Shown here: positions 21,412 to 55,375 of the stretch, one piece after another
How positions within the stretch are numbered: the first letter of the stretch is position 1
Layout of the letters: every line of letters begins with the position of its first letter
From: Strigamia acuminata
Taxonomy: Eukaryota
DNA length: 64,000 nt
Direction of reading: 5' to 3'
NCBI GenBank assembly: GCA_949358305.1
Contig: OX442314.1
Location: 1,364,001-1,428,000, forward strand
The notes under the pieces: generated by a model
Databases searched by the model: none
The model's input: the letters and a program-made list of their open reading frames with translations, nothing else
What the model was told of the DNA's origin: nothing
Position numbers and translations under genes: made by a program

Positions 21412-21480
21412 GTTGAATTAGACAGATAAAAGAGAAAGATGATAGGAAAGTAGGAATAAGTTCTAACTTTAAACAATTGA

Positions 21481-21500: not shown

Positions 21501-21502
21501 AG

Positions 21503-28165: not shown

Positions 28166-28371
28166 TGTTGGTTTTGAGTGCCCAGTCTTCACGCCAGGTG
28201 AACGTTTCACCTGCGCACCCACGACGTCCAGATGACGTACTTGGCGTAAACCAATCAGGGTTGAGCGCACCTGTATATAATGTGTTAGCAATTAGAATAA
28301 AGTTAGTCATTTGCTGTTAAACCTAACCACGCGTCTTATCATTGTCCCAACCTTCGACACTAAAAACTACA

Positions 28372-28400
28372 GGTTATGGGCCCAGCACGCTTCCACTGCG
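28372..28400 (+). promoter_or_regulatory. Copia-type PBS complementary to the 5' half of initiator tRNA-Met
   Basis: GGTTATGGGCCCAGCACGCTTCCACTGCG directly after the LTR; also present in copy 2 at 55141-55169 (-). Confidence 0.9.
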
Positions 28401-28485
28401 GATAATATCGAGATTTGGGACGAAACGATCGAAGAAGTCAAAACGTTTTTGATACGAACCGTTTCGAGAAACAAAATCAGAAACG

Positions 28486-30414: not shown

Positions 30415-30757
30415 TTAGTAAAACAAAATATTTGAATTGTTTGAGAAAAATATGTTTAATATTTGAATTGTTTAAGAAAAGTGTTTTTAATTATTTTAAC
30501 TTTTGAGATGTAAAAATGTTGGAATATGTGGTGACTGGCACTCAGGGGAAGTGTTGGTTTTGAGTGCCCAGTCTTCACGCCAGGTGAACGTTTCACCTGC
30601 GCACCCACGACGTCCAGATGACGTACTTGGCGTAAACCAATCAGGGTTGAGCGCACCTGTATATAATGTGTTAGCAATTAGAATAAAGTTAATCATTTGC
30701 TGTTAAACCTAACCACGCGTCTTATCATTGTCCCAACCTTCGACACTAAAAACTACA

Positions 30758-33217: not shown

Positions 33218-33219
33218 TA

Positions 33220-34333: not shown

Positions 34334-37300
34334 TTATTTTTTTAAACAATTACTTAGGTTTAAGTAAAGAATTTGCATTATTTCGGGTATTGCGAATAGA
34401 GACAAACCAAGCATCAACCCAAACCCATTTCCCACATCACAAAAAAGAGCATTAAGGCTGTATGATAAAATTTCTTCAAACTTCTCTATCATGTTATTCA
34501 TTGCGGTAATGCCAAGTATGTCAGCTATCCATGTTCCAGGCTCTTGAAAATAAAGTTCTGTTGTGACAACGCTTTCTTTGCATGAAGGTTGGCAATGGCA
34601 GACTTCTTTTTTGTTTATATTCATGGAAATGTTAATAAATGTTGCCACAACTTGTTTAGCTTCTGAGGCTGTTGTGCATGGATTGGTGAGATTGTCATCA
34701 GTAAGCGGAACACTAGGTGGAAACAAAAATTTAAAAACAGACAAGTTAAACTGTGAATATAATTCGTGACATGAACATAGAAGTGGAATTAGAAAATCCA
34801 GTTGCTTTTACTGTATCTGCAGTCCAAAAGTACAATTGCCTAAATTTACACTTACAAGTTAGTAAATAGTGTTTGTGATCTCACCTCCTTGGTGTGATGT
34901 AGGAGCGTTACGATTACCACACATACCGTATATCTTTGATTTGTAGGCGGGCCTTTAATAGCCCGCGGACCTTATTTAATACGCGGGGCCGAACTTTTTT
35001 TTACAAATAAGGCGCGGGCCTTGTTTAGCGCGTGGGGCCAATTGTTACGTTTCCGAAACGTACCATAATTGTTGTTACGTCTCGAAAAGTTCCAATTGTA
35101 GGCCGAAAATTTTTGAAATGTGCCGAAAAAGGATGATAAATGGAACGTTTTGCATATGTTTCAGTAGAAATTACCGAAACACATGCAAAACGTTTTATTT
35201 ATCACACTGTTTTGGTGATTTTTGTCGCAAATTGGCCGATGTTTTTTTCCAATTCGGAATAAACCGCGGGCCTTAAATAGCGCGCGGACCTCAAATACCA
35301 CGCGGGTCAAAATATTTTTTTGCAAATAGCGCACGGGTGCACTATTTGCAGATATACAGTAATGATGTAATGAATATAACGGGATTATATTATTTTGACA
35401 CTATTTTCCCTAATTTTGACACTAAAAATCCCTGACTTTTACACTCACTGAGTTTTACACTAAACTTCTGAATACCAACACTATTTTCCCTTATTTTTGC
35501 ACTAAAATTTCTGAAAACTAAGGTGACCAAAATTGACCAAAATTGACCAAAATTGACTAAAAATTGGCCGAAATAAACGAAAATTGGACGAATCGGACGT
35601 AAACCGTAAATCGGACGTATACCAGACGATTCGCGTCGCCAAGCGATTTGGACTTGAATCCAAAATGGCGTCAGGTCGCACCTGATTTGTTGCGATCAAA
35701 ATCGCCGACCAAAAAGTACATGCACCAATTACTTTTTGGTCGGCGATTTTGATTGCAACCAATCAGGTGCGACCTGACGCCATTTTGGATTCAGGTCCAA
35801 ATCTTTTGGCGACGCGTGTGTCACAAGCATCACATTACATTATGACTTCCCAATTTATGGTGCTTTCTTCGGAAGAGTCTGATACTGATCCGGATTTCAA
35901 AAGCCACAAACTGGCACCCAAACAGCGAAGGAAAGCAGGCCTCGCTTGGGAAAAGAAACAAAGTTTCGATTGTTACGAAGCTGCAGTTAAATCGCTTAAA
36001 GATGAGAAGTCTTGGAAAATGAGAAGAAAGTATTTGTCATCCGAAGGAGAAAAAATTTTTTTACGACTGCAGATTTTCGAATGAATGTTCCGCAAAAACG
36101 TACTTTTTAGTTACATCTCACAGTGCAAAATGTGATGTTTATATCACTACCAAAATTCATACACACGAAGGACTGGTTGGACCAGTTCAATGGGGTATTC
36201 CGGAAATGACAAAACAAAAACTTCGCGATTTGTATAAAAACGGAGTTACTAAACCAAAATCGATTCTTCGTAAACTTCGAGAGTTTGGAATAGCAGAACC
36301 CAAGACTAAACAGTTGGAAAATTTGTTGACGGTGATTCGTAAGGAAGAAGATGGAGAGACGCTTGTATCGCTAGGACAATTGCAGAAATGTGTTTCGGAT
36401 GATTTGATTGTTCCAGAAGACGATGATGAGCCGTTTGTTCTGAAATACGATGTTCATATAAGTGATAATGATAATGAAAGCTATTTCCGATTCTGTTATA
36501 CGACCAAGAGATTACAAACGATCAAGGAAAAAGGCAGGCTGTTCGGATTCCAATCGAACATTTCATCCGATTTGTGTCGGTGTTTTTCAATCGGAAACGG
36601 CAGAAGATTTTAAATTTTTTTTTCAAGCATTAGCTATAAAATCATACAAGCCCAAAGCACTCGTTGCTGATTGTGCTGAGGCAATCACAAATGCATGTTT
36701 GGATGTTTTCGTTAATGAGACATTAAGAATACACTGTTGGGCGCATGTAATCCGAAATGTTGATAAAAAGCTAACAAGTAAGTCTTATAACAAACAATGA
36801 TAGTCGTGCAGAAGTGCGTTCTGACATTGTAGCTTTACAATTAGCCCGCTCTGATTAAGAATTTAACGTTTCCAAGCAGTTATTCGTGAAGAAATGGAGA
36901 GCGGTTGAGTCGGTTTGCACTTTTTTAAATTATTTTGATAATGAATATTTAAATCGTTTTATTGGATGGCATGTTGGTCACTGTCCTGGCTCTCCGTGTA
37001 CAAACAATGGTTTGGGATCGATAAATAATACTGTTAAATCCCATTACACTTTTAGAAATCGGCTTCCTCTCCTTCGTTTTTTGGTAGTTTTAAAAGAAAT
37101 GGTTCGTAACTGGTCAATTAAGAAAGATCCTAATGCTGTAAACGCAAAATTGTTTGCAACAACATCCATGTTTTTGTTAAATCAAATATCAGCAGCGTAC
37201 CAGTGGAAAAGAGCAAAACCGACCGTAAAAACACGTACAGATGGTGGCAGAATTTTATATTTTATTCAACCACGTGAACAGGCTGTTTTAGGAGACGTAG

Positions 37301-40300
37301 ATATTAATAAGTATTTGCGGCGGAGTGAATTTAGGAATTGGAGGCGATTTGATACATATTGTCAATCGCTAAAATGCCTGTGGCTTGTAATAATAGAAAA
37401 TCAGGAGTGGGAAAAGGGTACTTGCACATGTCCTGTATTTGCTAAAACATACACTTGGGTATAGCGATCATTGAGAAATTATTTGTTGTACCGCCTGAAG
37501 CAAAGACGGTTCCCATTGGGGAAAAAAGAAAGCGGGGTCAACCATCTAAGGCTAAGAAAGCTCTCTTAGTGCAATAATTTAGTGCAATATGAATGTAAAC
37601 TGTATTAAAATCTAATGTAAAAATAATTTTTTAACTGTAAAAAATAAGAAAAATAGTGTGTGTTCTCAATGAAATAGTGTATCAAAAAGTGGTGTAAAAT
37701 TTAGTTTTTTTTAGTGTAAAAATAAGGGAAAATAGTGTCAAAATAAATGGAACCCGAATATAACGCCCTCTAGGGATAACCATTGTAAAACATTTAGTAT
37801 GTAACCTTGACATGACAAACTCATCACTCACTAACGTATGAAGTGTAACCTGCTTTCCCTCATCAGTAAAAGCTAGAAGCATTCAATCTGGACCCTTTAT
37901 TAAGCAAATACATAACACTGTGCAAATGGATTAACGAATCCCTTCTACGTAGGTGGAAAACACATGGTCTTGTAAGTTATACCTGCATTTGATTGATTCA
38001 AGTAGCTTCTTTTTGAAGCAACTGTCTTTGCATTGCTTGTGTTCTTCCATTCCAACACAAGGATTGGATTTTGTTTTCAATGATGTTTTCTGCATTGAAT
38101 ATTTTTTAATGCGCTAATATTATAGTGAAGCTAATTGTCGTGTTGAACAGGTGCACCAATGAATGGCAGCACACATATTGTAAACACCTGGCTAAGGTGT
38201 TAAGTCTGTTAAGACAACTGACTTAATAAACAGTTAATTAGGAATTTTTATCCTGTGCACTTCATTGGCTCTAGACACTACACTAATGTTGTCGTAAAGC
38301 CAAAGAATCATAATTTCAGTTGCAAGAATCATAGGCAAACTACATGCCTCAACTGCGTTTTCTTTAGCCTTAGTTCCTAGACCAGGGATGGGGAATCTTC
38401 GGCATCACATTAGAGGTGAGTTAATTAAATGTTTGATAATTTTTTGTGGCCGTCGATGATGTTATAACTACGTATACAAATGACCCCTGGCAGAAAAAAA
38501 TTTTCCCACCCCATCCCTGTCCTAAACAGTGGCAGTTTAGCTTTTGCAATGCCCTCGACAAAATGTTGAAATTATTATTATTCCAATGCATAAGAGCGGC
38601 GTCACGTTTACGCGTGCATGTAGCGTACACAGGCATGACATCGCGGTATTTGTTCACTTATACTCTGGTTCAACTCAAAAGGTTCTCCTCCTCCCATTGG
38701 CCAAGCCTCATTACTCTTAACTCTAGACCGTATTACTACCACTAGGAGTTTTTATTTTTATTTATTTTTGAGATTATTATGACCATTTAAATTGATATAA
38801 TTTTAATTGTATTTTATTATAAAATGCTATTTCCATTTGGGAAATAAAGTTTTCTGCACATATAAATGTAAAACTCATGTTTGTTCTGTTTTTGGTTGCT
38901 TTGTCTGGAAAGCAAACAATTTTGAAATTTTGGCTGTTACCTAGGCAATCGATTACAATGTCTGTACATTGTAATGCATTTCTGGTGTTTGGGTCTATTT
39001 TTTCGGATCACTACACCACTACACAATCGTTTTGTCAACATAACAATTTGCCTCCCCCAAATTGTTAGGTCATTTTGTTGACGAAATAGACCATTTGCTT
39101 TTATCGACGAACGTCTTGTCGACGTTTCACTTTGTTCACAAACGTCAAATTGTGTTTCTGGCATCTATTTACATGGGTGATAGTGTGGAACATGAATTTA
39201 CACATGTAGGGATGGTTAAAGTGTGTAAATGAATATTTGCATGGCAAAAACCTAACCCAATCTGACCTAAACCAAGTTAACATAATCTGACCTGAACCAA
39301 CCTAATCTAACCTGATTAGAACCAACTTACCCTGACTAAACGTTTACGGTTTTGTGCCAAATATTGCATTTTATGGTAAAAAATTATGCTTAGCTAAAAA
39401 CCTACCGTAGAAGATTAACGCAAATTTCTATATTGCGCGAACACATATTTTTTGTCGGCGTAACCGCGATGTCACGCGTACGCATTTAGTGTTTGGCGTG
39501 CATATGCGTAAGTGCGACGTACCAATGTCGCACTTACGAATGTTGGATCACCACTGGTTGAAGTGGGCAAAAAGATAAAATTCAAATTTCTGCAGTTTGT
39601 GAATAATACTGTACTTCAAGAAATGAAAATCTGAGGATTGAAACAGCAGTCTGTAGAATGTTTCGTTTACTCGTAAGAATAGAATATTTTTCAGCTCCTT
39701 CTGGACGAACGTATAACTATAAAAAAAATACAAAAGATGAATCGAACCGTATGCAATCCAAAAAGGTCAAATATACAACTGATCCCATAAAGAACTGGAT
39801 GGAAATAATTAGGGTAACGAGAAGTTTATATAATATTTGTATATGGTACTGATACAAAGATACCATATAGGTTTGGTTTGACTGTGAGCAAAGCACGACA
39901 GAGAAGAATAAGACTGAGCCACATCAACTGTAACTATGTTAAAACTCTTGTAGGATAACATGGAGATTTTGAACACACATTACACATAACAGGGAAATTT
40001 TGGAATACAGACGTTACTGAGTTACCTGAAATAACCCATCAGTGCAATTGATACACACAGGTCTTTTGATAACGAGGAAAAATGTAGATGTAGTTCCGGC
40101 ATATTTCATTTGGTCTGTAATAAAAGACATTTGAACGGATTACTGGCACAATTATTATTCTATTTGGGTATACTTATTTTTATATCCAAACATGTTCCTG
40201 TGTGCATGTAAATACTTTTATCCATGTAGCTTTTCTCACCTTCCAGGTTCAAGAAACCTGATCCCTACAATCGAAAAGCAAACAATCAAAATTGTTCTAT

Positions 40301-43300
40301 CGGAGTATTAAAACTGGTAAATGTTTAATTTGAAAGTTAAAACTAAAACAAATTTTGTCATATGTGGAATTGGATACTCTATATAGTAATAAGTTTAAAT
40401 TACTATAACTATATATTATATATATGGTAATTATAATTATAAATATATAACTATAATTATAAATATATAATTATAATTATAAATGTATAATTATAATTAT
40501 AAATATATAATTATAATTATAAATATATAATTATAATTATAAATATATAATTATAATTATAAATATACCGTATACCGTAAGTATAATTGTAAATAAATAA
40601 TTAATATAGTTATATAGGAGAGGAAATGATGTCATTTTTGTTTTAAAATTGAAGTAAAACACATTATTTTAATTTTTGAATGCTAGCTAGATTCAAGAAA
40701 ATCCAGTAAAATAAGAAATTTTTTTTATTTTTCTCACAAAAATATCAAATTCTTATTCAACACTAAAGCAACCAGAAAAGAATATTGTGGTTTTGAGGGG
40801 GTTAGACCACATGTGCGCAAATCAATTGCGGTTGACCACTTGTGAACACTTTCGAAAAAGATACGGTAATTATCTCTCTGCAGTCACACACCTCGGCAAA
40901 TTTATTCATTACGGATGTATCCACTTTTGGCTTCTGAGAGTCCCACAATTTTTTTAGCGTCAGTACAATCTTTGAAGTGTTCAATAAATCAATAAAATGA
41001 ATAGTGCAATGATCTCCGCCGATTTTGTTAGCAAGTTTTATTCTTAATGAAGTCATCATATGGCTATCTCCACAAGCAATTATATCGGGCAAGTACAGAG
41101 TGCTATTTTCCACAACTGTGACTACCATTTTTGTAGGTTCACTATAGTACAGTTGTACTTTCATCACTGCCAAAATAGTTGCAAGTACGGTGCTCACAAC
41201 TAACACAATTAAATGGGCAAAACGTTCAATGGTAAATTCGTTGCTTGCACTAGTGTTGGTGGTTTGGATTAATATTTTCTCATATACTTTCTGTATTCTA
41301 GTTGTAATTTTTTTGTTTGATTGAAAAGCACGACGAGAATTTGATGGTCTGATCGCTGCCCAAAGCCGACGAGTTAAAGTTTGTCCTATTGCCATTAAGG
41401 ATAACAAAGATAGTCCCAATGAAAATCCCAGATTTCCTCCGAAATCTATTAACAATGCAATTTTGTCATAAGTATACTCTTCAGTCAGAAGCAGATATGT
41501 TTCTTCTGTTTGTAACGCATATAATACGATTTTATTTTTGTCTTTTGGTGGTAATTTCTCTACAGCGATTCTTGTCATGTACATGTGCTTCGTGCAAGGT
41601 TTTAGGCACCCACAATCTAAAGTTGCCACGGTTGTTAGTTCACGTATGTATGCGTTGTTATGAATTTCAAAAACTTTGCTTTTGTTTTTAAAATCACTGC
41701 AATCTGGAATGCTGCTATTATATTCCATGTAGGGTAACCTAAAATTGAGAGTAAAGTCTGTATATTTTAGTCTCTGATTGGTGACCACACATGAATTTTT
41801 GCTCGTAATAAGTTAATGCTTTTCTTTCCTACAATGTCACAGAATTTGTTCCGACAGCTCATAGGTCTAGTTAAAAACAACCAGTAAGAGCAACGTTTCT
41901 GTTGTATGGTTTTCAGTCCAGAATACTGGTAAATGCCTAACTATGGATGTGTTAGATTATTTCGCTTTTGTGCCTGATGTACGACCCGCACCCATGTGTA
42001 TTAGGCCACTTGTATTTTTTTATGTTAAAAAAAATAAAATTGTAAAATTCGAACCCTAAAAAATGTTTCTAATCAAAATAAATAAATGAAACTTATAGAA
42101 CAAATATTGGGCTTTATTTTTTAAAAAAAATGAAATTTTAACTTAAATGGGACAAAAGTTATGACCATTTGATTTGAATTTGGGCTACTTGGCACAAGTG
42201 TATTTGGCCACCACGCTAATTGCCTCAAGTGAGTTGGGCCGGCAGAAAAAGCTTAGCACCACATTCAAAAAAATCACAAAAAAAAAGGTTTCTTCAGAAA
42301 ATCATTGATTATTTGAACAATACATTTCAATACTTTGTTGAATAACCAAAATTTTGTATGTGATTGTGCAGGCAAAGTCAAAACCTACATGTGATGGGTT
42401 TGGAACACTGAGCAATTGACTTGACTTAATGCTTAGAATCATTTTTTTGCTGAAAAATCCCTGTCAAAGGCAGTTTATCATCTGCAAATTGAAGCGTAAC
42501 AATCCTACAACACTTTTTTTATAAGTATATTGGTCCATGATATTCTTAATTTAATGTTGTGGACCGATACACGTACAGGAAACCATCCCCAAGCCATCCC
42601 AATAGTAAAATGGCTGTAAAAATAAAGCGTAAGTTGCATTTATTTATTTTGATTAGTAACATTTTTAAGGGTTTGAATTTTCGATTTTATTTCTTTTAAC
42701 ATAAAAAAATACAAGCGGCCCAATACACATGGGTGCGGGTAGTAATTTAATTTTTGGGTTTTAAGAAGAAATAGCATTTAAATTCATTTATTTTTATTCA
42801 ATCAACGAATTATGACCAATTTCTTATAACACAATCCTGTATTAACTCACATTTTTGAGGGCAGGGTTCAAATTTGCGCGAATCAAATTTGCGCGACCCG
42901 AATTTGCGCGACCCAGTAAAAAAAATCCCAAGTTCGCGCAAATCAAATTTGCGCGATTCAAATTTGCGCGATTCAAATTTGCGCCGACCCAAATTTGCGC
43001 CGATCCAAATTTGCGCCGACCCAAATTTGCGCCGATCCAAATTTGCGCCGACCCAAATTTGCGCCGATCCAAATTTGCGCCGACCTAAATTTGCGCCGAC
43101 CCAAATTTGCGCCAATCACTTCGTCACCCAATCTGAATTTTTTTGGGCATTTTTTCTGTCGTTTTTTTGCCGTTTTATGATGCAGTTTGGCCGTAGTTTT
43201 GAAAGTAGGAAATTGTGGCATTGAAAGTTGTTTGAAGCAGCGATTGAGTTTTTGCAATTGCTTCTTCGATGACAAAACAATTTCCATGCATAATAAGTTT

Positions 43301-46300
43301 AAATGAGCATTTCCATTGTTTCGAATTCGATGCACAAATATTGTATAACTGACGTTTAAAATAAATAAATTGATGGCAAAATTATTCAATTTGGGTTGAA
43401 TTCCTTCACCAAGAGATGTGAGTCGATGAAACTATTGCCGATGAACTGAGTGGCGATGAAATGATACGCCAAACAAAAAATGTAAAATTAGTCACTTTTT
43501 TTCTATATGGCGACGGAAAAATCGGCGACAAAATGATACGACTTCGTTTGTAAGAGTTGTTTTTGTATTTTAGTTTCTTATAAGTAATTTAATTAAGTGT
43601 TTGCAAGTGTGCCCAATTTTGTAATCTATCAAATGGGTGATATTAAATATTGAACCTTAAAAATTCAAATTTTTTATTTATAAATGTTGTTATACAAGTT
43701 AATGTTTAAATCAGGGGTCGGCAAGTAATTTTAAGTGGGATCTGGAAAAATTGAAAATTTTAATTGAGGTCCAGAAAAAGACAACAAAATAAAAGGAAAA
43801 GAACACAAAAAACACCAAAAAACACCAAAAACACCAAAAAATACCAAAAACACCAAAAAGAAACCAAAAAAAATCCAAAAACATCAAAAAAAAACCAAAA
43901 ACACCAAAAAACACCAAAAACACCAAAAAGAAACCAAAAAAAACCCAAAAACACCAAAAATACCAAAATAATATATGTATAATAAAAAATATCTGGCGGT
44001 CCAAGTTTCGACCTTCCGCAGTCCGTATCCGGACCACGGTCCGCCAGTTGCCGACTGCTGGTTTAAATAATGAAAAGCCTGGTCAAGTCTCTGCGCTCTG
44101 TCATCACAGCTCTGCACACATGACATTTTAGTTCCACCGAAAATTGCACACTGGTTCTAATGCAAGCAGCACAAGCCATGTGACCACACTTGTAAGCAAT
44201 GTTGCTTCGTGTGGTACTACACAGCAAACAGGTGAGTTCATTTTGCTCCTGTTGCACGACCAAGTTTTCGCTTGCTTCTGTAAGCAATTCCACCAATTCC
44301 GTTGCCAAGACGTGTACCTCAGCTGGTAACCGAGCTATATACTGCAGCCTTTGACGCTCACGCATGTCATCCCAGTCATCAGGTGTCACACCGTAATCCT
44401 CATCGTCGTCCAACTCCACCACAGCTTGAACGCGGGTGGCAAGCAAGGTGGCAATGTTCCTACGAGTGTGGCGTCGTTGAGGAGGGGGGAGTTGCTGATC
44501 AGCATCCGCATCTGGGGATCGGCGGTGGCGCAAACTTCGCCTGAAGGGTTGCGCTGGCTCTGTCACAGGTTCCAGCAATGGCTCGTCTGGCACAGGTTCC
44601 GGTAATGGTTCTTGTGGCAAAGGACATGTGCGCGGACGACCACGCGGCCGACGAGGCACATCCGGATCACGCACTGGTGCAGTGTGGATCATGCGGCGTC
44701 TTGCAACAGCAGGCTGGTTTCTGGACTGAGTGGCAGCTGCAATAGCATCATCCAGGTTGAAACTCGGAGGATCTACGGGAGGAGTAGGGGGCTGGTAGCG
44801 TCCTGTCGTATTAACTGTGGGAATCCGCGGGATGACCGTTGGTGCCGCCAGCAAGCCATTTGGTATAGCGACGCCATTGCAGTCCAAACTGATACCGCCG
44901 CCCATGTTGGATACGCGATACGCCACCGACTTCAAAAATTCAAACTCGTTGATGAGGTTGCTGCTGTAATTCGCCATAAAACGCCGTATGCATGAGTCAT
45001 TCATCAAGCAGTGCCTGTTGGGACACTGTTGCGTATCCAGGCCGCGCATCTCTTGTGCGAAGCTAACAGTTGCCGTGTGGTCCACCTGCGACAGTGCAAC
45101 AACAAAGTGGATAGGTAAAGTGTGCTTTCCAAGTGTTGCGGGCAATGAGGAGTGCCATGACTCCAAGCTGTTGTTTGTACGATGGGGCAGTTCAAATACA
45201 CTCATCCTGGCCGCAGTCACCTCCATCAGCCACTGTTCGCGAAAATACCGAAAAAACTCTGCCATTAGCTCAGCTACTTGTCCCTCACGTGATGCAGCAT
45301 GCCAGTATGTTTCAACAATCTGGAATCCATCTTGCACCTTAGACGCAGGTAAATACACCAGAGCCATCACAAGGTGTATGACTGCCCATGCGTACTCATC
45401 AGAACTATAGAATGGTTGCAGTCCCAATTGCATGGCTTTACGTCGAATTGCTTCGCAGAAATGAAAACTGCAATGTACTATGTTGCACGAAGGAAAAGCC
45501 TCTTCCAGAGATTTAAACATGGCCGTCTCATAGTCTGTCATGAAAGTCGTGCCCGTTTCGATAATGGTCAGAGTAGATGCCAAATGACTGAATACTTTGT
45601 CATATGCAATGCGTGACTTTCTTGTCATTAGGCAGTAGCAAAAAGGTATTAGTTTGCTACCAACCATGCCCTGAACAGTTAGAAATTGGTAAAACTGAGA
45701 GCCACCATCAGCAAACTTTGGCACAACCTTAAAAGTTGCATCGACATGGAACTCCCTGCTTTTACTTTGGAGCTCTGTGCACATTTCATGGTTGATGAAG
45801 AAAACAGAGACCGATCCATCCTCACCAATCAGGGTCGCGTCGTAAATGAATGAAAGGCGTTCGTTCTGGGCAACAGTATTTTTTTGCAATTCAAGAAAGG
45901 CATAAAAAGAGTTCAGGCTGTCCAGTTTAGGAATGTCTTTCTTGCATTGCCTGTTCAAAGTTGACTTAAAACTTATATAAGGACGTTGCAATGCCACATC
46001 CGGATACTTTATGCACAGTTTATTATATTCCGGTTTCTTGGGTGCTGATGGATTTAACTTGCGGCAATTGGCAACTAGCTCGTAAGCAAACAGCTTGCAA
46101 TTGACATTAAAAGAGGTAGTTCCATGCTCATGAGGGGTGCATAGTTGAAATGCATTCGTCAACATGTTCAATTTACCACGGCATCGGCAAGTCGCCACAA
46201 TGCACCGCATCCACATGGTGTCTGGATTTGCAGCGCATTGGCGATCTTCCCTGTAGATGTATTTCAGTTCATCGTACCACTGGCGTTTATCCAATTTCGA

Positions 46301-49300
46301 GTGACTGGGCAACTTGATCAGATTCGATTCCATTTCGATTCGGTTAGTATGAATTTTGAATTCGTTTGTTGCGAACGTGCGTGTGCAGGCGTGTTTCGTG
46401 CGTCGAACGTACGGGTGTCGGCGTCGAACGTGCGTGTGCGGGCGTCAACTTGCGTGTGCGGGTGTCGGCGTAGAACGAGCGTGTGCGGGCGGCAACTTGC
46501 GTGTGCGGGCGGCAACTTGCGTGTGCGGGCGTCAGCTTAGAACGTGCGGGCGTCGGCGTAGAACGAGCGTGTGCGGGCGGCAACTTGCGTGTGCGGGCGT
46601 CGGCTTAGAACGTGCGGGCGTCGACTTAGAATGTGCGGGCGCCGGCTTAGAACGTGCGGGCGTCGGCTTAGAACTTGCGTGTGCGGGCGTCGGCTTAGAA
46701 CTTGCGTGTGCGGGCGTCAGCTTAGAACTTGCGAGCGTCGGCGTCGAACTTGCGTGTGCGGGCGTCGGCTTAGAACTTGCGTGTGCGGGCGTGTTTCGTG
46801 CGCAGGCGAGCGTGTGGTGCTTGTGCGTGAATTTTTTAACTTCAACTAGTTATTTTTACAAAATTGAAGAAAACAATGGTAAGGAAGGACTCTCATTGGT
46901 GAGAGATAAGCAAATTCAAAGAACTCAGAATTTGTGGGTCACAACAGGTCAGGGCCCTGCCGACCTATGACGCGAAGAGGCGGCCGCCTCTTGGTTTCAT
47001 GGGTCGGCATGGTCCTGCAACAAGTGATGGCCAGATGTGACAAATTTGCGCAAATTTGGACCGGCGCAAATTTGGGTCGGCGCAAATTTGGACCGGCGCA
47101 AATTTGGGTCGGCGCAAATCTCGGTCGGCGCAAATTTGGTCCGGTGCAAATTTGCGCCGCGCAAATTTGGTCCACTTTGCGCCAATTCGGGTCGGCGCAA
47201 ATTTGAGCCAAAATAAACACGGCGCAAATTTGGGTCGCGCAAATTTGGTGCTGGCCGCATTTTTGATAGTAAATTGTATTAAATATTTTTGAAATACCGT
47301 ATGCCGATACTGGTACCACTGATAAAAAAAACCAAAAGGATAGTGTACCGAGTCGCGATACATTTTTTCGAGTACTGGCCCAACACTGGTTAATAATGAT
47401 AATATTGGATTTATTTTATTTACTTCACCACTTATATTCATCCAGTCTGACGTAGTTATAACTTCAGTGTACTCTATTACTATGTTTACATGCACGGAAT
47501 ATTTTGAGTGGTGAATAATTCGTGTGTTGAAATAATCAAATTGTTGTGTTTATATGCAGACAATAATTCATGATTACTTTCCGTTTTCGACCAATGGGGA
47601 AGTGCTGGAAGCGATGCGCGCATGCACAATAAAAATAATTGGAGTTCACTCGAATTAAGCAACCTTCTGCGAGGGATTATTCACTACTCGAATAATCCTC
47701 GAATAATCCGAATAATCCTGTTTAAACAACAGTTGTGCACACAGAATATTTCATCTCACTCGAAATATTCTGAGCACATAGTATTGGTAGACTAGACATT
47801 GGACGGGTCCCAGAAAGTTGTCCAGACCAACTGTCCCGATGACAGAGATGATTTATCATCGCCGGATATAAATCGGGACTGCCAAACCTGTCCGGACGGC
47901 GTTATGTCGGTCTACACAGAGTACACTGTAGACCTGTAACCTGGTGCTGAGTCAATTGCATAATATATTCAATTATGATTGGAAATAAATGATTACAAAC
48001 CGACATTCGCTCCTTTCCAATCTTGCTAAACATTCTTGGTAACACTTAATCTGAGTTTCTTTGTCTGATTCACAATGAAGTTCGTTTTTTGGTAAAAAAC
48101 GATACTGCAAATTTAAAAAGATAAAATAAAATGTTTTTTTTTTATAAAAAAAAATATAAATTACCTGTCGCAGAAAGAAAACAAATGAGGCCTTATTGCC
48201 TACTGTAACCGGTAATGCATATTGAAACGGCATTATAGGGTTGTCAGGTGCCATCTAGATGAAAAGAAAAAAACGTGGGATAACCATATTCATGAAGTCA
48301 TTTAAACTGGTTTATCTTTTGTAAACAACTCTAGATGTCAAATTTTACATTTAGATTTAGATTATGAGAACCTGCATTCCATAAGTCATTTAAACTGCTT
48401 AACTGGGGATTGTCCGAATACCGAATTTAACTTAAAAAATGGCGGCTGATTTTGTTTGCTTTCAGTCGCAGTGGGCGTGCTCACAGCATTTAAACAGCAA
48501 AACATGTTGATTCTAATTTTAAATTAACTTTTCAAATGCAGTTAGTGAATTGTACATCCTGCATTGTGGTGACTACACTCTTCTGATCATTATGCTGCCC
48601 TACCCAATCACAAGCTTTTGATTAAGAGAGCACTTCGTAGCTAAATAACAGTACTCTGAAATATTCCTCAAAGAATTTGTGCAAAACATAGATTTAATAG
48701 GAAGTGTATGTTGTAAACTTGACCTTGGTGTGGGGAGATAATAACGGTGATTAAGATAAATATTGTAATGGATAACAATGATGAAAATGCGTGAGACATA
48801 TATTATAGAAATTGAGATGTAACCAATAGTAACCGAATAAAAGAGCCAAGTAGTTTTGGATATCAATGTGAGTGAATGTGTTTATTTATCGCTGAGGCTG
48901 CATGAAATATAAAGACTATTTGAAAATAGTACAGTGAACCCACCAGTATGCCACTTTGATCGCAGTATCCATCTGTATGTAATCCAACATTCCATTCAGT
49001 TCCTTGGCTAAGGAAATAGGCTAAAAAAAAATACATTAATTTTGCGTGAATGTTAAAGATCGAGTGATCAGAAAACATTTCTCATTTTTCATTTGCTTCC
49101 CATTCTAATTTGGCTAAATTATTCCACTTTTCCATATTATTGTATGTATGGACATAAAATTAAAATACAAAGCAAGCAAATTACTGCAAAAGACCAAAGA
49201 GGCGGAAACTGCACACCTCATCAGTCTTTTGGTTGTCAAATATTACCTCCATCGACAACCAATGATGTTCCCATTACAGTTTTCTTTTCATAAATGTCAA

Positions 49301-52300
49301 ACATTGATGGATTTTTTGTGACGTATGTAAGATTGCCATCATTTCCAGTCATATTAAAGATTTTGTATTTGTACTATAAATACACAACAAACCTTTTTTT
49401 TAAAAAAGATTATTACATAATGTATTATGATATGAATTGTAAATTTTATTAAACAGTAGTAGGTGCATTCAAAAACTCTAAAACGAGTTGAATGCAGCTA
49501 TATTAGGATTGTTGAATTTTAATGAGTTTCTCAAGGTTTTTCTTTCCGTTTTAAGTTTCTTTGATTTTACGTATGTTAAAGTCGTCACGCGTCTTGTTCA
49601 AGTTGAATAAATGTGCTTATTCCTGTTCCCATTGTTTAAACTCCCTAAATCATTTGTTTTGTTTGTCATCCAATAAATCTAATCCTAATTTTTTTGAATT
49701 TCCTGTTTGTTTGTTTCACATCCTGAGTTTTGACTTTGTCCTAACTTTGATTTTGTCTATCTGTCACTCCAGTCTGGTTTTGGACTTGAGTGATTGATTT
49801 TGACAATTTCGACCGGTCTATCTGATGTTTTACTCTTGTTTCCCCCTCGTTTATTTTTTACTTTCTCCAATTTAATTTACATTTGGCTTGTGATGCATTG
49901 AATGACTCAGCTCATCATTATTCACCAACATGTCTCATTGGCTACTCTAACTGTCACTGATTGGTCCTTCCATCCTGACCCAAGTTGATTGCAACCTTCT
50001 ACAGGGTATATGGCACAGAATTAGTTTGCGCTTTGACTTGTTAAGGGCTCTCTTCTTGAGTAGCCAGAGTCTCACAAGCCTCTTTTCTCCCCTAGGTTTA
50101 CCTCTCACATCTTTGTCGATTCCTCCCATTGTGGACTTCTAATTAGCCCTCTGAGTTTTGTTATAATCATGCGTTTAGATACACAAGTTTTATTTTTTTG
50201 CATTCCTCTTTTTATTCCCTTTTTTGTATATTTTAATCACGCCATTGAGATGTATCTGGAGCCAAATTGGATTAATTGGCCATTAGTATATTTATTTGAT
50301 TGTCTCAGCACGTTTCATTGCGCTTAAGCTTGGTGTGGTCGCTCCTCCATTCTGGGGCCCAAGCCAGATTCTGCATCTTTTCTATACCTTCGAAGCATTG
50401 GAACGACGTCACGCGTATGCCAATAGCCTGTGTTGCTGCTTTTCATTTAGCTCTTTAATGTGCCAGTATTTTGAGATTCAAGGAGACCCGTGCTATTAAT
50501 TGTCTCATGTCGACCACTTGGAAATTGTGCCACCACCCTTTGGCATAATTTCGAAGACGGGCAGGTGCTCCGGACCAGCTCTGCGAGTTGTTGTGATCCC
50601 AAAGTGTTCACATAATTTGGGTGAAATTTCCGTATTTTTTGCCGTGCACCTGTTGCGCTTTTGGGCAATTGGCCCAGAAGCTGTAACGGCTGCCCTGGCA
50701 TTTTATGCCCTGGATTGGGGCGTTGCTTTGTCTATCCCGAATTTCTGCACCATTGCTAGGGCTGAAGCGTGCCTTGGCACACGCCACGCCTGCGCACTGG
50801 CCGTTTTCCGGCCCAATTCCGAGCAATAATTTGAGTTATTGCTCACTCTTTGCATCACACTCATACCGTTCACACCGACACAGCTTTGTTCAACCCAAAA
50901 ACACTGTTTTGTCAGTGATCCGTGAGGTTGCCAAGTTTCAACTTGATTTGTCTGAGCCATCGTTCAGACGAATCCGTTCCGGACGCCGAAGACGAAGCGC
51001 AACGGTCCGAACCAGCGTTGTTTCCGCCGCCGCCCGAAGACCAACGAGCGACAGCCGCCGAAGATCGATGCCAGCCAGCCGCCGAGGACAGCAGAGCTTC
51101 CGCCGCTGCTCCTCGACCTGTTGACGACGATACCGATACAGTTTGCAGTGGATCTCCAGTCAGGTTTTAACAATCGGCGGTACCCGCCGTTTGACTACTT
51201 GCCTTCGCCGGGAATCTCCCGCTGCAATCTAGGGTTTAACTCAAGATTTCCCGTTTGTTCAGGCTTAACCGCCGGACCCGTCCGTGAAGTTATTAGGCTT
51301 CACACTTCCTTTCCAACTTCGCAGAGTTTGCGCGGCATCGAGTCGCCATTTCTGCATTGTTTTTTCCCGCCCGCCGAAATCCCACGCTGTTTTGAACACG
51401 TCGCCTTCTACGTGGACGACATAGTACTGATAGAACCTATATTATTATCATTATCTTCAATTGAACCTTGTATTTCACTTAATTAATAAACTTGAACTTC
51501 GTTTTAATTGATTATAATTAGTTTAGCCTTTATTTCGAGAATATCTCTCCAGACACGTTTAACGGCTAAAATACCCCGATAGAAGACTTTTACGGCATTC
51601 AACTGCTTTCCGTAGATGAACGCCGGGATCTCTTGCTTAGGGGCCATCCATAAATTATGTAACGCCCGGAGGGAGGGAGGGGGTTTCAAATTTTATTACG
51701 GGTTGTTACGACGGGGGGGGGGGGAGAATTCTTAAAAATTTAACGTAACAAAAAGTAAAATTTTTACTTTTATTGTTTCAATTTATTATTATTGTGAATT
51801 TTAAATTTTTGTAAAAAAATTTAAATTTTTCAAAATTTTTTTTACATTTTTGAATTTTTTTTTACATTTTTGAAATTTTTTTTCGATTTTTTTCAATTTT
51901 TGAAATTTTGTTGAAATTTTTGTAAAAAATTTAAAATTTTGTTGAAATTTTTGTAAAAAATTTAAAATTTTTGTAAAATTTTGTATTATAAGCTTGTATT
52001 AAAAGTTTTTTTTTTTTGGGGGGGGGGGGGGATGGTAAGTTTTGTTACGTAATATTCTACCTTGTTACGGGAGAGGGGGTCTAAAAATCAAAAAATCAGC
52101 TTTACGTAATTTATGGACGGCCCCTTATAGAAAATCCCTTGTTTGACAAATATAAATTTAGTGTTGAGTAAAAATACCAATTGGATTCGCAGGAACGCAA
52201 CAGAGTGTACTCAAAACCGTGCAAAATTCAAAACGCGTTTAACTTACAACTAAAACAAGCGGTTTATTTATTATATATTTTCTTATTTTTCTCAAAAGTG

Positions 52301-52820
52301 CATTTCGAAAGTCTATTTTCATCTTCACAGAAATATATACCGTATTTTAACGATTAAGAGTCGCCCTTGAATTGTAGCCGTCCTCGAATAGTAGCCGCGG
52401 CTGAGTCACCAAGAATACCGTATGTTTGAAAAAGTACAGTATTGTTTCCGTATTAAACCTCACGAACGACGAACGTACGCTTCGTTCGTGACTTCAGACT
52501 TCGTTTGTTACATTAAACAAATGTAACAAACGAAAAATCGAAATTGTAATTGCTGACAAAAATGGCAGTTTTGAATTTGAGCCGCGGCTTTTAATCCATA
52601 AAATACGGTAATTCATGACTTAAAACAGCTAAAATTAAGTTAAATTAGATACTTGCCCTATTCACGTGCATAATGTCAAAATTTTTCATTAAGCTTGATT
52701 CCTCCCACAGTTGAGTGTAATTTGAAATATTAACTTTTAAATTGAAAAGTCCTTTCAGTGCCAATGCACAACATTGAAACTTAAATACAGCGTTTTCAAA
52801 ATTGTCAAGTTTTGGTTTTT
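34334..52820 (-). CDS. DEG/ENaC gene B, remainder: two-repeat channel protein (exons ~52820-52657, 49373-49247, one unresolved, 49007-48944, 48254-48165, 48104-48001, 41738-40892, 40264-40174, 40114-40026, 39716-39615, 38089-37983, 34712-34334)
   Basis: Splice sites and phases are consistent, except a GC donor at 52656 and an unresolved junction at 49246-49008. Two thumb domains (KCYQEC...CRLPYM...CGCLKPC; QCKDSC...CHCQPSC) and two TM2 motifs (DFGGNLGFSLGLS; DVGNGFGLMLGLS). Disrupted in this assembly by Copia insertion and inversion. Confidence 0.75.
34924..35361. mobile_element. MITE with TACCGTATATCT / AGATATACAGTA ends
   Basis: Short TIRs with TA termini and internal GCGGGCC subrepeats; similar ends at 52338-52610. 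Confidence 0.6.
35381..37755 (+). mobile_element. Mutator-like element (SWIM type), decayed
   Basis: TIRs GGG...TTATTTTGACACTATTTTCCCT; 9-bp TSD GAATATAAC at 35372-35380 and 37756-37764. Confidence 0.9.
35842..37577 (+). pseudogene. MULE transposase pseudogene (DDE fragments, SWIM remnant, AT-hook-like tail)
   Basis: Fragments in several frames: LVADCAEAI, CWAHV, TNNGLGS, CTCPVF, KRKRGQP; frameshifts and stops. Confidence 0.85.
38383..38519. mobile_element. Small hAT-type MITE
   Basis: TIR CAGGGATGGGG / CCCCATCCCTG; 8-bp TSD TCCTAGAC / TCCTAAAC. Confidence 0.7.
40428..40567. repeat. AT-only 20-bp minisatellite (TTATAATTATAAATATATAA)
   Basis: About 7 tandem copies in an intron of gene B. 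Confidence 0.85.
40892..41738 (-). CDS. Junction exon of gene B: thumb and TM2 of repeat 1, ~50-aa linker, TM1 and start of ectodomain of repeat 2
   Basis: One stop-free frame: EEYTYDKIALLIDFGGNLGFSLGLSLLSL...RFAHLIVLVVSTVLATILAVMKVQLYYSEPTKMVVTVVENSTLYLPDIIACG. Confidence 0.85.
41982..42742. mobile_element. Non-autonomous TIR element, TA flanks, ~110-bp TIRs (Tc1/mariner-like)
   Basis: CGACCCGCACCCATGTGTATT... and ...AATACACATGGGTGCGGGTAG inverted ends. Confidence 0.75.
44063..46333 (-). CDS. FLYWCH-MULE transposase with AT-hook and C-terminal C3HC4 RING finger (756 aa, intact)
   Basis: WMRC...C...HEH finger; DATF, TDYE, CSFH and TNNSLESWH (D, D, CxxH, E); RPRGRPR; CLLC...CGHMACAAC...CHVC. 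Confidence 0.92.
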   Translation of the reverse strand: MESNLIKLPSHSKLDKRQWYDELKYIYREDRQCAANPDTMWMRCIVATCRCRGKLNMLTNAFQLCTPHEHGTTSFNVNCKLFAYELVANCRKLNPSAPKKPEYNKLCIKYPDVALQRPYISFKSTLNRQCKKDIPKLDSLNSFYAFLELQKNTVAQNERLSFIYDATLIGEDGSVSVFFINHEMCTELQSKSREFHVDATFKVVPKFADGGSQFYQFLTVQGMVGSKLIPFCYCLMTRKSRIAYDKVFSHLASTLTIIETGTTFMTDYETAMFKSLEEAFPSCNIVHCSFHFCEAIRRKAMQLGLQPFYSSDEYAWAVIHLVMALVYLPASKVQDGFQIVETYWHAASREGQVAELMAEFFRYFREQWLMEVTAARMSVFELPHRTNNSLESWHSSLPATLGKHTLPIHFVVALSQVDHTATVSFAQEMRGLDTQQCPNRHCLMNDSCIRRFMANYSSNLINEFEFLKSVAYRVSNMGGGISLDCNGVAIPNGLLAAPTVIPRIPTVNTTGRYQPPTPPVDPPSFNLDDAIAAATQSRNQPAVARRRMIHTAPVRDPDVPRRPRGRPRTCPLPQEPLPEPVPDEPLLEPVTEPAQPFRRSLRHRRSPDADADQQLPPPQRRHTRRNIATLLATRVQAVVELDDDEDYGVTPDDWDDMRERQRLQYIARLPAEVHVLATELVELLTEASENLVVQQEQNELTCLLCSTTRSNIAYKCGHMACAACIRTSVQFSVELKCHVCRAVMTERRDLTRLFII
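46372..46805. repeat. GC-rich ~21-27-bp tandem repeats just upstream of the transposase start
   Basis: Degenerate GAACTTGCGTGTGCGGGCGTCGGCTTA units. Confidence 0.85.
50589..52202 (+). mobile_element. Solo LTR related to Gypsy A, carrying a MITE insertion
   Basis: TGTTGTG...CGCAACA ends; 4-bp TSD GAGT (50585-50588; 52203-52206); colinear with 21503-22683. Confidence 0.88.
51640..52124. mobile_element. PIF/Harbinger-type MITE nested in the solo LTR
   Basis: TIR GGGGCC(A/G)TCCATAAATTA(T/C)GTAA; 3-bp TSD TTA; absent from the paralogous LTR. Confidence 0.88.
52338..52610. mobile_element. MITE with TACCGTATTTT / AAAATACGGTA ends
   Basis: Short imperfect TIRs with TA termini. Confidence 0.6.
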
Positions 52821-52825
52821 GTTTC

Positions 52826-55375
52826 TGTAGTTTTTAGTGTCGAAGGTTGGGACAATGATAAGACGCGTGGTTAGGTTTAACAGCAAATGACTAACTTTAT
52901 TCTAATTGCTAACACATTATATACAGGTGCGCTCAACCCTGATTGGTTTACGCCAAGTACGTCATCTGGACGTCGTGGGTGCGCAGGTGAAACGTTCACC
53001 TGGCGTGAAGACTGGGCACTCAAAACCAACACTTCCCCTGAGTGCCAGTCACCACATATTCCAACATTTTTACATCTCAAAAGTTAAAATAATTAAAAAC
53101 ACTTTTCTTAAACAATTCAAATATTAAACATATTTTTCTCAAACAATTCAAATATTTTGTTTTACTAATTAATACTCTTCATATCGAATTCTTCCTGGTG
53201 GTTTTCCATTTCGATTTGAATACAGCCTCCGAGTTCTCGAAGATTGTCGCGGAGGCGCTCGTACGTTTTTGATCTGGAGAGTTTCGACTTCCCCTTGTTC
53301 AGTCTCGTTCTCGACTTCATCATTGATCTTGATTTCGACTTCCCCTTGTTCCGTCTCGTTCTCGAAAATTTCTACTTCGTTCTCGTTCTCGGAAATTTCA
53401 ACTTCGTTCTCGTTCTCGGAAATTTCGGCTTCGCTCTCGTTCTCGGAAATTTCGGCTTCGCTCTCGTTCTCGGAAATTTTGACTTCGTTCTCGTTCTTGT
53501 CTAGTTCCACACTTGATTCCTCACTCGGCTGCAAAATCATATATTGCGCCATTTCCATTAATGTTTGACTTATCTGTTCTGCAAAGTCGTTTTTCAGTTT
53601 CTTCAAAATTGATTCGTATTCGAGCTTCTCGTGCCATTCGCGAATTTTTACGTTCTCGGTTCTAGTCTTCTTGACTTCCGCAGCTGTTTTCTTGTTTTCG
53701 GCTCTCGTCTTCTTGACTTCCGCAGCTGTTTTCTTGTTCTCGGTTCTCGTCTTCTTGACTTCCGTACTTGCTTTTTCGGTCTTCATGTTCCCGGTTCTGA
53801 CTTCGATTTCCATTGCGGTCGCAGCATCCTCGGTCTTGTCGACGATGTAATATAATCCGTTTCTTTTTTCGGCGGTGAATACGATTTCTCCCTTCGGGCT
53901 TATTATTTCTGCTGATTTATTGTCAAAAATCACCTTGTGTCCCCGCTCTGTGATCTTTCCGACTGACATCAAATTCGTTCGCAAATCCCGTACCAAGAGA
54001 GTCTCCGTCAAATCCAACTTCATATTTCCGTCTCCAGTTTTGACGACGATTTTCGCGGTTCCTTTTCCGTCGATGTTCGTACTCGCTTTACTGGCCAAAT
54101 TCAATTTCTGGTTCTTCAGGAATTCGATCGTTGAAAATGTTGAATTGCTCGAGCACATGTGGGAACTTGCGCCGCTGTCCAAACACCAATTTCTCGGCCG
54201 TGACTTCTCGCATTTCAATGCTGTCTCGTTTTGTTCGCAGAAAAATAATTCGTACTTGGACTTCTCGGCTCTCGATGCGCTTTCCTTCTTGCTTTTACTT
54301 CGGCAATCGGCGATTTTGTGGCCGATTTTTCCGCAACCGTGGCACTTGAACTTGAAAGTCGGCTTTTCATCAGAATCCGATTCATCGTCGCCGTTCTTCG
54401 GCTGCCTCCGTTTTTGGAACGATTTCTTGGCCAACATTGCGTCGGATACTTCTTCTTTATCTTTTTCTTGAGAAATTGCTGCGGCTATAATTTTAGCTTT
54501 TAGCGCTTCCAGCGTCGGCAATGTGTCTCGCGATTCCATCGTGATCTTGAACGTATCGAATGATTTCGGCAAACTTTGCAACAGCAGCGTCCCAGTAAGT
54601 GTCGGATGGATTTCCATATCCATGTCGAGTAGCTTATCAACCGCTTCAAAAAATCCCTTCAGATAGTCACGCACGTTTTCGTTCTCAGCCATTTTGTTTC
54701 CGCAAATTTGTTTCAGCAACATGCCCATATTTGCCGGTCCTTTCGCTTCGTAAATTTCGTCCAATTTTCTCCATAATTCGTTTGAGGTTTTACAGTTTTT
54801 CAACAATCGAATCTCCGACTGTTTTACGTGTAGCAAAATATCGTATCTCGTGTTTCTGTCTCTCACGTCCCAATTTTCGGCGGCTTTCTTGGTGTTATTG
54901 TTGCTTGGATCAACTTCTGGTCGCTTCAATGTTCCGTCCGCGTACTTTAAGAGATCGTTCTTCCCCAAAATTGCTTCCATTTGGACTTTCCAGGCATCGT
55001 AGTTTTCTTTCCCCAGTGGTTCGATTCTAGCCGAAATTCCGCCTGCATTCGCCATCGTTTCTGATTTTGTTTCTCGAAACGGTTCGTATCAAAAACGTTT
55101 TGACTTCTTCGATCGTTTCGTCCCAAATCTCGATATTATCCGCAGTGGAAGCGTGCTGGGCCCATAACCTGTAGTTTTTAGTGTCGAAGGTTGGGACAAT
55201 GATAAGACGCGTGGTTAGGTTTAACAGCAAATGATTAACTTTATTCTAATTGCTAACACATTATATACAGGTGCGCTCAACCCTGATTGGTTTACGCCAA
55301 GTACGTCATCTGGACGTCGTGGGTGCGCAGGTGAAACGTTCACCTGGCGTGAAGACTGGGCACTCAAAACCAACA
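52826..55375 (-). mobile_element. Copia-derived non-autonomous LTR element, copy 2 (LTRs 52826-53031 and 55170-55375)
   Basis: Near-identical to copy 1 but 42 bp shorter; flanks in element orientation are AAGAT (5') and GAAAC (3'). Confidence 0.95.
53169..55055 (-). CDS. Copia Gag-protease polyprotein (628 aa)
   Basis: Same protein as 28486-30414 minus one 14-aa repeat unit. Confidence 0.92.
   Translation of the reverse strand: MANAGGISARIEPLGKENYDAWKVQMEAILGKNDLLKYADGTLKRPEVDPSNNNTKKAAENWDVRDRNTRYDILLHVKQSEIRLLKNCKTSNELWRKLDEIYEAKGPANMGMLLKQICGNKMAENENVRDYLKGFFEAVDKLLDMDMEIHPTLTGTLLLQSLPKSFDTFKITMESRDTLPTLEALKAKIIAAAISQEKDKEEVSDAMLAKKSFQKRRQPKNGDDESDSDEKPTFKFKCHGCGKIGHKIADCRSKSKKESASRAEKSKYELFFCEQNETALKCEKSRPRNWCLDSGASSHMCSSNSTFSTIEFLKNQKLNLASKASTNIDGKGTAKIVVKTGDGNMKLDLTETLLVRDLRTNLMSVGKITERGHKVIFDNKSAEIISPKGEIVFTAEKRNGLYYIVDKTEDAATAMEIEVRTGNMKTEKASTEVKKTRTENKKTAAEVKKTRAENKKTAAEVKKTRTENVKIREWHEKLEYESILKKLKNDFAEQISQTLMEMAQYMILQPSEESSVELDKNENEVKISENESEAEISENESEAEISENENEVEISENENEVEIFENETEQGEVEIKINDEVENETEQGEVETLQIKNVRAPPRQSSRTRRLYSNRNGKPPGRIRYEEY

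What the first reader, a model, noticed from the sequence alone, without database searches (positions are those of the whole stretch)
34334..52820. Natural head-to-tail concatemer: one gene encoding two DEG/ENaC channel subunits
Seen: exon 41738-40892 (-) reads without a stop from the thumb and TM2 of one DEG/ENaC subunit (CGCLKPC...EEYTY...DFGGNLGFSLGLS), through a ~50-aa basic linker, into a second TM1 and post-TM1 strand (YYSEPT...LYLPDIIAC). Upstream exons back to 27856 supply repeat 1. Downstream exons to 34334 complete repeat 2 with its own TM2. The total is roughly 850 aa with 4 TMs. Because the junction lies inside an exon, it cannot be a gene-prediction merge of neighbouring genes. 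The two repeats are very divergent, so the fusion looks old. Established: DEG/ENaC/ASIC subunits have 2 TMs and assemble as trimers. Inference: a covalent dimer would fix subunit order and force 2+1 assembly with a separate monomer, linked trimers, or linker cleavage. I do not know of a characterised natural example.
Basis: partly seen in the sequence, partly recalled or inferred. Interest (0 to 1): 0.88.

Follow-up and report, generated by a model that had tools for sequence, protein, structure and literature searches.

The report
Two-subunit ENaC channel gene family
One gene here encodes two sodium-channel (DEG/ENaC) subunits joined head to tail, an arrangement shared by at least 24 uncharacterised predicted proteins of a centipede, which likely forces a normally three-part channel to assemble from a fixed pair plus a third part, although this particular copy is broken by a transposon.

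Summary
The fusion is real. Exon 41738-40892(-) runs without a stop from the thumb and TM2 of one DEG/ENaC unit, through a basic linker of about 50 aa, into TM1 of a second unit. The spliced model has 825 aa, two ASC units 22% identical, and the same five intron phases in each. It is not a one-off. A search with the exon returned 24 named Strigamia maritima (centipede) gene models, all with the same junction. Window unit 1 matches their first units and unit 2 their second units, so the fusion is old and has been amplified as a family. Two more copies in this genome keep the linker open. Expression and assembly are untested (no RNA run was listed). The likely mechanism is a fixed-order pair plus a third subunit, giving an asymmetric pore. 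Three-unit proteins in a shrimp look like whole channels on one chain. Ten literature searches found no natural example.

The parts
27856..28165 (+). Exon 1, 5' part (unit 1 N-terminus, TM1, first strands); ends in target-site copy GAAAC
   Evidence: Pfam ASC 10-69, E 3.5e-7; boundaries
28166..30757 (+). Copia-type LTR element T1 (gag plus partial pol, 206-bp LTRs) that interrupts exon 1
52826..55375 (-). Inverted copy T2 of the same element; target-site duplications and the single LTR SNP are swapped between T1 and T2, marking an inversion of about 30758-52825
52666..52820 (-). Exon 1, 3' part (unit 1 finger), donor phase 0
49247..49373 (-). Unit 1 exon 2 (phase 0 to 1)
48944..49020 (-). Unit 1 exon 3 (phase 1 to 0)
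48165..48254 (-). Unit 1 exon 4 (phase 0 to 0)
48001..48104 (-). Unit 1 exon 5, thumb cysteines (phase 0 to 2)
40892..41738 (-). Junction exon: unit 1 thumb and TM2, basic linker (about 41385-41235), unit 2 TM1 and finger
40174..40264 (-). Unit 2 exon 2 (phase 0 to 1)
   Evidence: conserved in paralog A
40026..40114 (-). Unit 2 exon 3 (phase 1 to 0)
39615..39716 (-). Unit 2 exon 4 (phase 0 to 0)
37983..38089 (-). Unit 2 exon 5, thumb cysteines (phase 0 to 2)
34334..34712 (-). Last exon: unit 2 thumb, TM2, stop
   Evidence: Pfam ASC 335-453, E 1.9e-6; BRTNaC1 E 9e-8
22925..24498 (+). Paralog A: five exons matching unit 2 exons 2-6 (212 of 239 compared residues identical, dN/dS 0.21); its 5' part is not in the window

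Best explanation
This is a transposon-broken copy of an old, expanded gene family, likely of centipedes, in which two different DEG/ENaC subunits are encoded on one chain, and intact members would likely fill two neighbouring positions of the three-subunit channel with a third subunit supplied separately. Shown: the two-unit reading frame, matching intron phases, the family in Strigamia, position-matched units, and the break in exon 1. Inferred: origin by tandem duplication followed by loss of the stop and spacer (the junction exon equals the last exon of one unit plus the first exon of the next); translation as one four-TM chain with a cytoplasmic linker; 2+1 assembly; an asymmetric pore; and a sensory role like BRTNaC1 or PDPNaC1. 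The third subunit could be a single-unit relative or an exon-skipped product of the same gene.
For: Intron phases are 0,1,0,0,2 in both units. A profile built only from single-unit hits covers the model twice. 28 of 62 hits have a TM2-to-TM1 junction, including all 24 hits named as Strigamia; gaps are 25-59 aa, all net positive. Unit 1 scores best on first units (T1JD34 96 vs 42 bits; T1ITL7 89 vs 48) and unit 2 on second units (T1J963 111 vs 40; T1JD34 105 vs 56). Unit 1 groups with T1ITA9 at 99/96. A clade of the two window units is rejected for the N-part (p-AU 0.033). Unit 2 exons are under purifying selection (dN/dS 0.21, p 2e-8). Two further genomic copies span the linker with no gap and no stop among the listed changes. 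Each unit keeps eight thumb cysteines and GxS. An AlphaFold2 model of the Strigamia homolog T1JD34 has pLDDT 70 and pTM 0.64, with BRTNaC1 and PDPNaC1 as best fold matches. An engineered head-to-tail ASIC1a dimer gave currents in oocytes (PMC4529235, passages). All five unit-1-donor to unit-2-acceptor skips would give in-frame single units of 410-422 aa.
Against: No transcript was seen. The Strigamia proteins are gene predictions, many of them partial, and their exon structure was not seen. This copy is broken, one sister copy leaves homology inside unit 2 TM1, and paralog A lacks its 5' part in the window, so no intact copy was shown in this genome. The linker shows no amino-acid constraint (20 non-synonymous to 4 synonymous changes). 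The C-part test did not reject a clade of the window's own units (p-AU 0.13), deep tree support is modest, and position matching failed for 4 partial or recently duplicated models. No bona fide single-unit partner was identified. In PMC4529235 the engineered fusions also gave monomer-sized bands, so their currents need not come from intact chains.
Confidence: 0.58

Rival explanations
1. The two-unit chains assemble with no separate monomer: three chains build two linked trimers, two chains build one trimer with a unit left out, or two chains form a four-unit pore.
For: All 24 named Strigamia hits have a junction, though the query and my choice of hits to look up favour such proteins. Some models have three or more units (T1IZL2, T1IU28). 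Engineered two-unit ASIC1a worked when expressed alone, and that paper argues for tetramers (PMC4529235).
Against: Solved relatives are homotrimers (PDPNaC1, PMC12714832). A linker of 25-59 aa suits neighbours in one ring but constrains bridging of two rings (inference). Left-out units are often degraded (general knowledge).
Confidence: 0.22
2. The gene is a source of two separate subunits: the linker is cut after translation, or internal starts and exon skipping give mostly single units, so the fusion only co-regulates them.
For: The linker is basic, holds RR and KK pairs and drifts freely. Met403 lies in frame upstream of unit 2 TM1. Exon skips are in frame.
Against: The linker is predicted cytoplasmic and has no R-x-x-R site. 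Met403 reads as Val in more distant copies (loose end at 41397). Linker length stays within 25-59 aa across 26 Strigamia junctions.
Confidence: 0.13
3. The junction is an accident of a decaying tandem cluster or of gene prediction and is never made as one protein.
For: This copy is broken, the region is dense in transposons, and no RNA was seen.
Against: The junction lies inside one exon; it recurs in 24 Strigamia models at only 22-38% identity and in an open frame on a 1154-bp contig (P0016); an open, gap-free linker in two more copies has a chance of about 0.01-0.04 if unconstrained.
Confidence: 0.07

Closest known systems
PDPNaC1 (PDB 9jf7) and BRTNaC1 (PDB 8ymr), centipede antennal DEG/ENaCs
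   Same: Best sequence matches among solved structures and best fold matches of the homolog model; compact units of about 400-430 aa; no canonical pre-TM1 HG motif in PDPNaC1 (PMC12714832) or here.
   Different: They are single units of 421-431 aa and PDPNaC1 is a homotrimer; here two units only 22% identical share one chain.
Engineered ASIC and ENaC concatemers (PMC4529235, PMC10329638, PMC5449180)
   Same: Head-to-tail TM2-to-TM1 cytoplasmic link that fixes subunit order; reported as functional.
   Different: Laboratory constructs with artificial linkers; this is natural, old, made of two diverged units, and amplified as a family.
Uncharacterised Strigamia maritima UniProt models (T1ITL7, T1JD34, T1IPM9, T1J963, T1ITA9 and others)
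   Same: Same two-unit architecture, basic linker and position-matched units.
   Different: Named only 'uncharacterized protein'; 22-38% identical over the junction; no description found in the papers searched.
Natural multi-repeat channels such as K2P, TPC and Nav/Cav (recalled, not from a call)
   Same: Subunits fused on one chain, allowing an asymmetric pore.
   Different: Those have four-fold pores that two or four repeats fill exactly; two units do not fill a three-fold DEG/ENaC pore.

Membership tests
DEG/ENaC | Pfam ASC (PF00858) domain | tested here: met
   Both ends of both units hit ASC (the N-part of unit 2 is below the curated cut-off); a single-unit profile covers both units
DEG/ENaC | Two TM segments around a large extracellular loop per subunit | tested here: met
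   TM1 and TM2 regions at 38-88, 368-411, 457-510 and 774-817; hydropathy alone flagged three of four
DEG/ENaC | Cysteine-rich thumb | tested here: met
   Eight cysteines with similar spacing in each unit
DEG/ENaC | GxS motif in TM2 | tested here: met
   GLS in both units
DEG/ENaC | Pre-TM1 His-Gly motif | tested here: not met
   No HG in the model; PDPNaC1, a working member, also lacks it (PMC12714832), so it is not required for membership
DEG/ENaC | One subunit per polypeptide | tested here: not met
   Two units on one reading frame; this is the variant feature
DEG/ENaC | Trimeric assembly and cation conduction | not testable with these tools
   Needs expression; a 2+1 complex exceeds the 1000-residue limit of the complex tool
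BRTNaC1/PDPNaC1-like centipede channels | Closest sequence and fold relationship | tested here: inconclusive
   Best PDB hits, but those two proteins were not in my trees
BRTNaC1/PDPNaC1-like centipede channels | Antennal expression; heat or proton gating | not testable with these tools
   No RNA run listed
Strigamia-type two-unit family (defined here) | TM2-linker-TM1 junction of 25-59 aa, net positive, with position-matched units | tested here: met
   Gap 46 aa, net +7; unit 1 matches first units and unit 2 second units in most full models

The most novel reading that the evidence does not exclude
Arthropods have evolved multi-unit, single-chain DEG/ENaC channels more than once: an expanded two-unit family in centipedes that breaks the three-equal-chains rule (linked trimers or a four-unit pore), and three-unit chains in the shrimp Halocaridina that encode a whole asymmetric channel in one gene, the DEG/ENaC counterpart of four-repeat Nav/Cav channels.
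Probability: 0.35. Interest if true: 0.92.

Novelty: new variant of a known kind. Interest (0 to 1): 0.8.

Why it matters
DEG/ENaC/ASIC channels are described as trimers of separate two-TM subunits (PMC9822975, PMC10148893; passages). A natural family with two diverged subunits on one chain poses a stoichiometry puzzle. It also offers a ready-made, fixed-order tool for asking how each subunit position shapes the pore, a question so far studied with artificial concatemers. It points to an undescribed expansion of candidate sensory channels in centipedes, and suggests that 'fused' DEG/ENaC gene models should not be discarded as annotation errors.

Tried and rejected
No whole genome was held. The sequencing-run search listed no RNA holder; this says nothing about expression. 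Three word-index protein searches found nothing; only the HMMER search reached relatives. The ESM Atlas gave ASC clusters only. No earlier scan findings were returned. Single-sequence AlphaFold of the junction exon was unusable (pLDDT 35). The metagenome scan gave 3 loci from 186 pattern matches; none spans the junction, and the two I read (L002, L003) end in a stop after TM2. The second structural aligner was busy. No complex was folded, because a two-unit chain plus a full third unit exceeds the size limit. Assembly error at the junction was rejected. A merge by gene prediction was rejected for this locus because the junction lies within one exon. A deletion making paralog A a unit-1/unit-2 chimera was considered and rejected: the shared 1-kb segment is an LTR, solo with its own ACTC target duplication in intron 1 and part of a gypsy element upstream of A. 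The letters where one sister copy leaves homology were not found in the window. P0047 was first used as a single-unit protein but looks like the second half of a two-unit gene; the profile was rebuilt without it and still covered both units.
Full report
Observation. The minus-strand frame 41812-40805 is open for 336 codons. Within it the exon 41738-40892 has canonical ends and 847 nt. Scanned separately against Pfam, its first half matches the C-terminal part of ASC (333-450, E 4.5e-9) and its second half the N-terminal part (19-88, E 4e-4, 20 bits, below the 23.6 cut-off). Exon 1 matches ASC 10-69 and the last exon ASC 335-453; three small internal exons gave no hit. Against the PDB the exon aligns to PDPNaC1 and BRTNaC1 C-half first, then N-half. 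In two public runs that behave as DNA, contigs with no or one difference tile the junction, so it is not an assembly error, though the runs may be the assembly's source.

Gene model. Hand-placed AG/GT boundaries give 825 aa with no internal stop. Both units have five introns with phases 0,1,0,0,2 at matching places. The junction exon is the last exon of one unit plus the first exon of the next, which fits tandem duplication followed by loss of the stop and spacer (inference). The units are 22% identical (81 of 362 columns; local score 89 against a shuffled maximum of 59). A profile built from 11 single-unit hits covers residues 8-431 and 417-825; rebuilt without one suspect row it still covers both, with unit 1 in two pieces. 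Each unit keeps eight thumb cysteines and GLS in TM2, and neither has an HG motif. Unit 1 has Ser at two positions where unit 2 has Cys in the first strands and before the palm, a paired loss (the disulfide assignment is recalled). At position 18', which sets Na+ selectivity in ASIC1a (PMC5449180, passages), unit 1 has Ala and unit 2 Glu; this position varies widely across the family.

This copy is broken. Exon 1 begins at 27856 on the + strand and is cut at 28165 by a 2.6-kb copia-type element. The rest of the gene starts at 52820 on the - strand after an inverted copy. The target duplication GAAAC lies left of the first copy and right of the second, AAGAT the other way round. The one LTR polymorphism is shared crosswise, and the two LTRs that flank the exon-1 insertion are identical. 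So a very young element inserted in exon 1 and then recombined with a second, inverted copy. Whether the inversion is biological or an assembly join cannot be told here; the insertion breaks the gene either way, and read-through stops after 154 aa.

Sister copies. Paralog A (22925-24498, +) carries unit 2 exons 2-6, with dN/dS 0.21 over 239 codons (p 2e-8); a gypsy element and an assembly gap lie upstream of it. In both runs two further copies span the linker, each with 17 substitutions and no gap. Of these, 16 and 13 are listed, and none creates a stop (worked out by hand). At the 24 distinct places, 20 changes are non-synonymous and 4 synonymous, so the linker sequence drifts but stays open. 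With the local frameshift rate (20 per 212 substitutions) the chance of this is 0.014-0.029, or about 0.04 by hand if the five shared changes are set aside. One of the two copies leaves homology at 41198, inside TM1 of unit 2. Whether these copies are paralogs or divergent alleles is not known.

A family. HMMER search of 1.84 billion representatives with the junction exon gave 62 hits. I looked up 30 of them, chosen by rank or by junction: 24 are Strigamia maritima 'uncharacterized' UniProt models, 2 Halocaridina rubra, and one each Polypedilum, Callosobruchus, Chamberlinius and an unnamed 1154-bp contig. Small TM1 and TM2 profiles built from the hits find a TM2-to-TM1 junction in 28 of 62 proteins, including all 24 Strigamia ones; their 26 junction gaps are 25-59 aa (median 38) and all net positive. 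Complete or near-complete two-unit models include T1ITL7 (805 aa), T1JD34 (791) and T1IPM9 (907). Window unit 1 scores higher on first units in 5 of 8 long models and unit 2 on second units in 5 of 8; the exceptions are partial models, T1ITG7 (whose units are recent duplicates) and T1IT41. In trees, unit 1 groups with T1ITA9 (99/96) and unit 2 with Strigamia terminal units (92/86, below the starred threshold) (four proteins, including a non-ENaC hit and the window exon itself, and short fragments were left out). A clade of the two window units is rejected on the N-part (p-AU 0.033) but not on the C-part (0.13). TM2 position 3' is Gly in the first units, but Asn or Ser in 7 of 8 divergent second units, including this one. 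This recalls the alpha versus beta/gamma asymmetry of ENaC at that position (recalled). The organism is therefore likely a centipede or another myriapod (inference from these hits).

Structure and mechanism. AlphaFold2 on the Strigamia homolog T1JD34 with a 23-row alignment gave pLDDT 70 and pTM 0.64, with two full units and a low-confidence helical linker. A pTM this high for a two-unit chain suggests a consistent packing (inference; I could not inspect coordinates). Its best fold matches are BRTNaC1, PDPNaC1 and ASIC1. Engineered head-to-tail ASIC1a fusions of two, three and four units gave currents, with smaller bands also present (PMC4529235, passages), and three-unit ASIC concatemers work (PMC10329638, PMC5449180, passages). 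I judge 2+1 assembly most likely, since solved relatives are trimers (PMC12714832). Because intron phases match, skipping from any unit 1 donor to the matching unit 2 acceptor gives an in-frame single unit, one possible source of the third subunit. Monomer-free assembly and cleavage are the main rivals. A sensory role is inferred only from the antennal relatives.

Three-unit chains. Two Halocaridina proteins (1289 and 1244 aa) have three units each. Their units match by position (33-34% identity, against 20-26% across positions) and pair by position in the C-part tree at 100/93-98. That fits an old single-chain channel gene, or a conserved three-gene cluster merged by prediction; it was not resolved here. 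The Polypedilum three-unit model has units closer to each other (41%) and is more likely a recent or merged array.

Literature. Ten full-text searches listed no natural two-unit DEG/ENaC. Term look-ups in the insect PPK survey (PMC8438182; it notes 46 sequences with three to five predicted TMs but has no 'fused' or 'tandem'), the mite expansion papers (PMC5203786, PMC7738191), two family phylogenies (PMC10507113, PMC9822975), a review (PMC10148893) and the Strigamia genome paper (PMC4244043; no ENaC term in the main text) found no mention. I saw passages only. The supplements of PMC10507113 had no Strigamia entry in the files searched, with four files not searched; other supplements and subscription journals were not seen and could mention such models.

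Verdict. A real, old and apparently undescribed two-unit variant of the DEG/ENaC family, seen here in a broken copy. Expression and stoichiometry are open.

Noticed in passing
P0034 and P0048 (Halocaridina rubra KAK7013173.1, KAK7028032.1): Two predicted proteins with three DEG/ENaC units whose units match by position: candidate whole channels on one chain.
   Followed up: partly
P0005, P0003, P0021, P0019 (Strigamia T1IZL2, T1IU28, T1ITG7, T1IL99): A subfamily with closely similar units; T1IZL2 and T1IU28 have three or more units per model, which suggests recent internal repeat expansion.
   Followed up: partly
P0035 (Polypedilum vanderplanki KAG5672929.1): Three pickpocket-like units, 41% identical to each other, with short gaps; a recent fusion or a merged model.
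   Followed up: partly
window 28166-30757 and 52826-55375: Two inverted, nearly identical copia-type elements with swapped target duplications, marking an inversion of about 22 kb; the second insertion site is a 23-bp satellite.
   Followed up: yes
window about 50588-52203 and 15882-22684: A solo gypsy LTR in unit 1 intron 1 and a fuller element of the same family upstream of paralog A.
   Followed up: partly
window 44066-46444(-) and 36023-37461(+): A MULE transposase frame in the long intron before the junction exon, and a broken transposase-like frame (no Pfam hit) in the last intron.
   Followed up: partly
window 23010-23242: A small element with inverted ends sits at the start of the short intron of paralog A.
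   Followed up: no
window 41381-41450: Several more distant copies match only TM2 of unit 1 and diverge after it, so the family in this genome is larger than the three copies that span the linker.
   Followed up: no
window 1-15800 and 33218-34117: A GC-rich 53-bp satellite array before the assembly gap, and a 24-bp array downstream of both gene copies.
   Followed up: no
L003:3-1793: A metagenome DEG/ENaC with cysteine-rich repeats that look LDL-receptor-like and a CUB-like stretch in its loop (by eye; not scanned).
   Followed up: no
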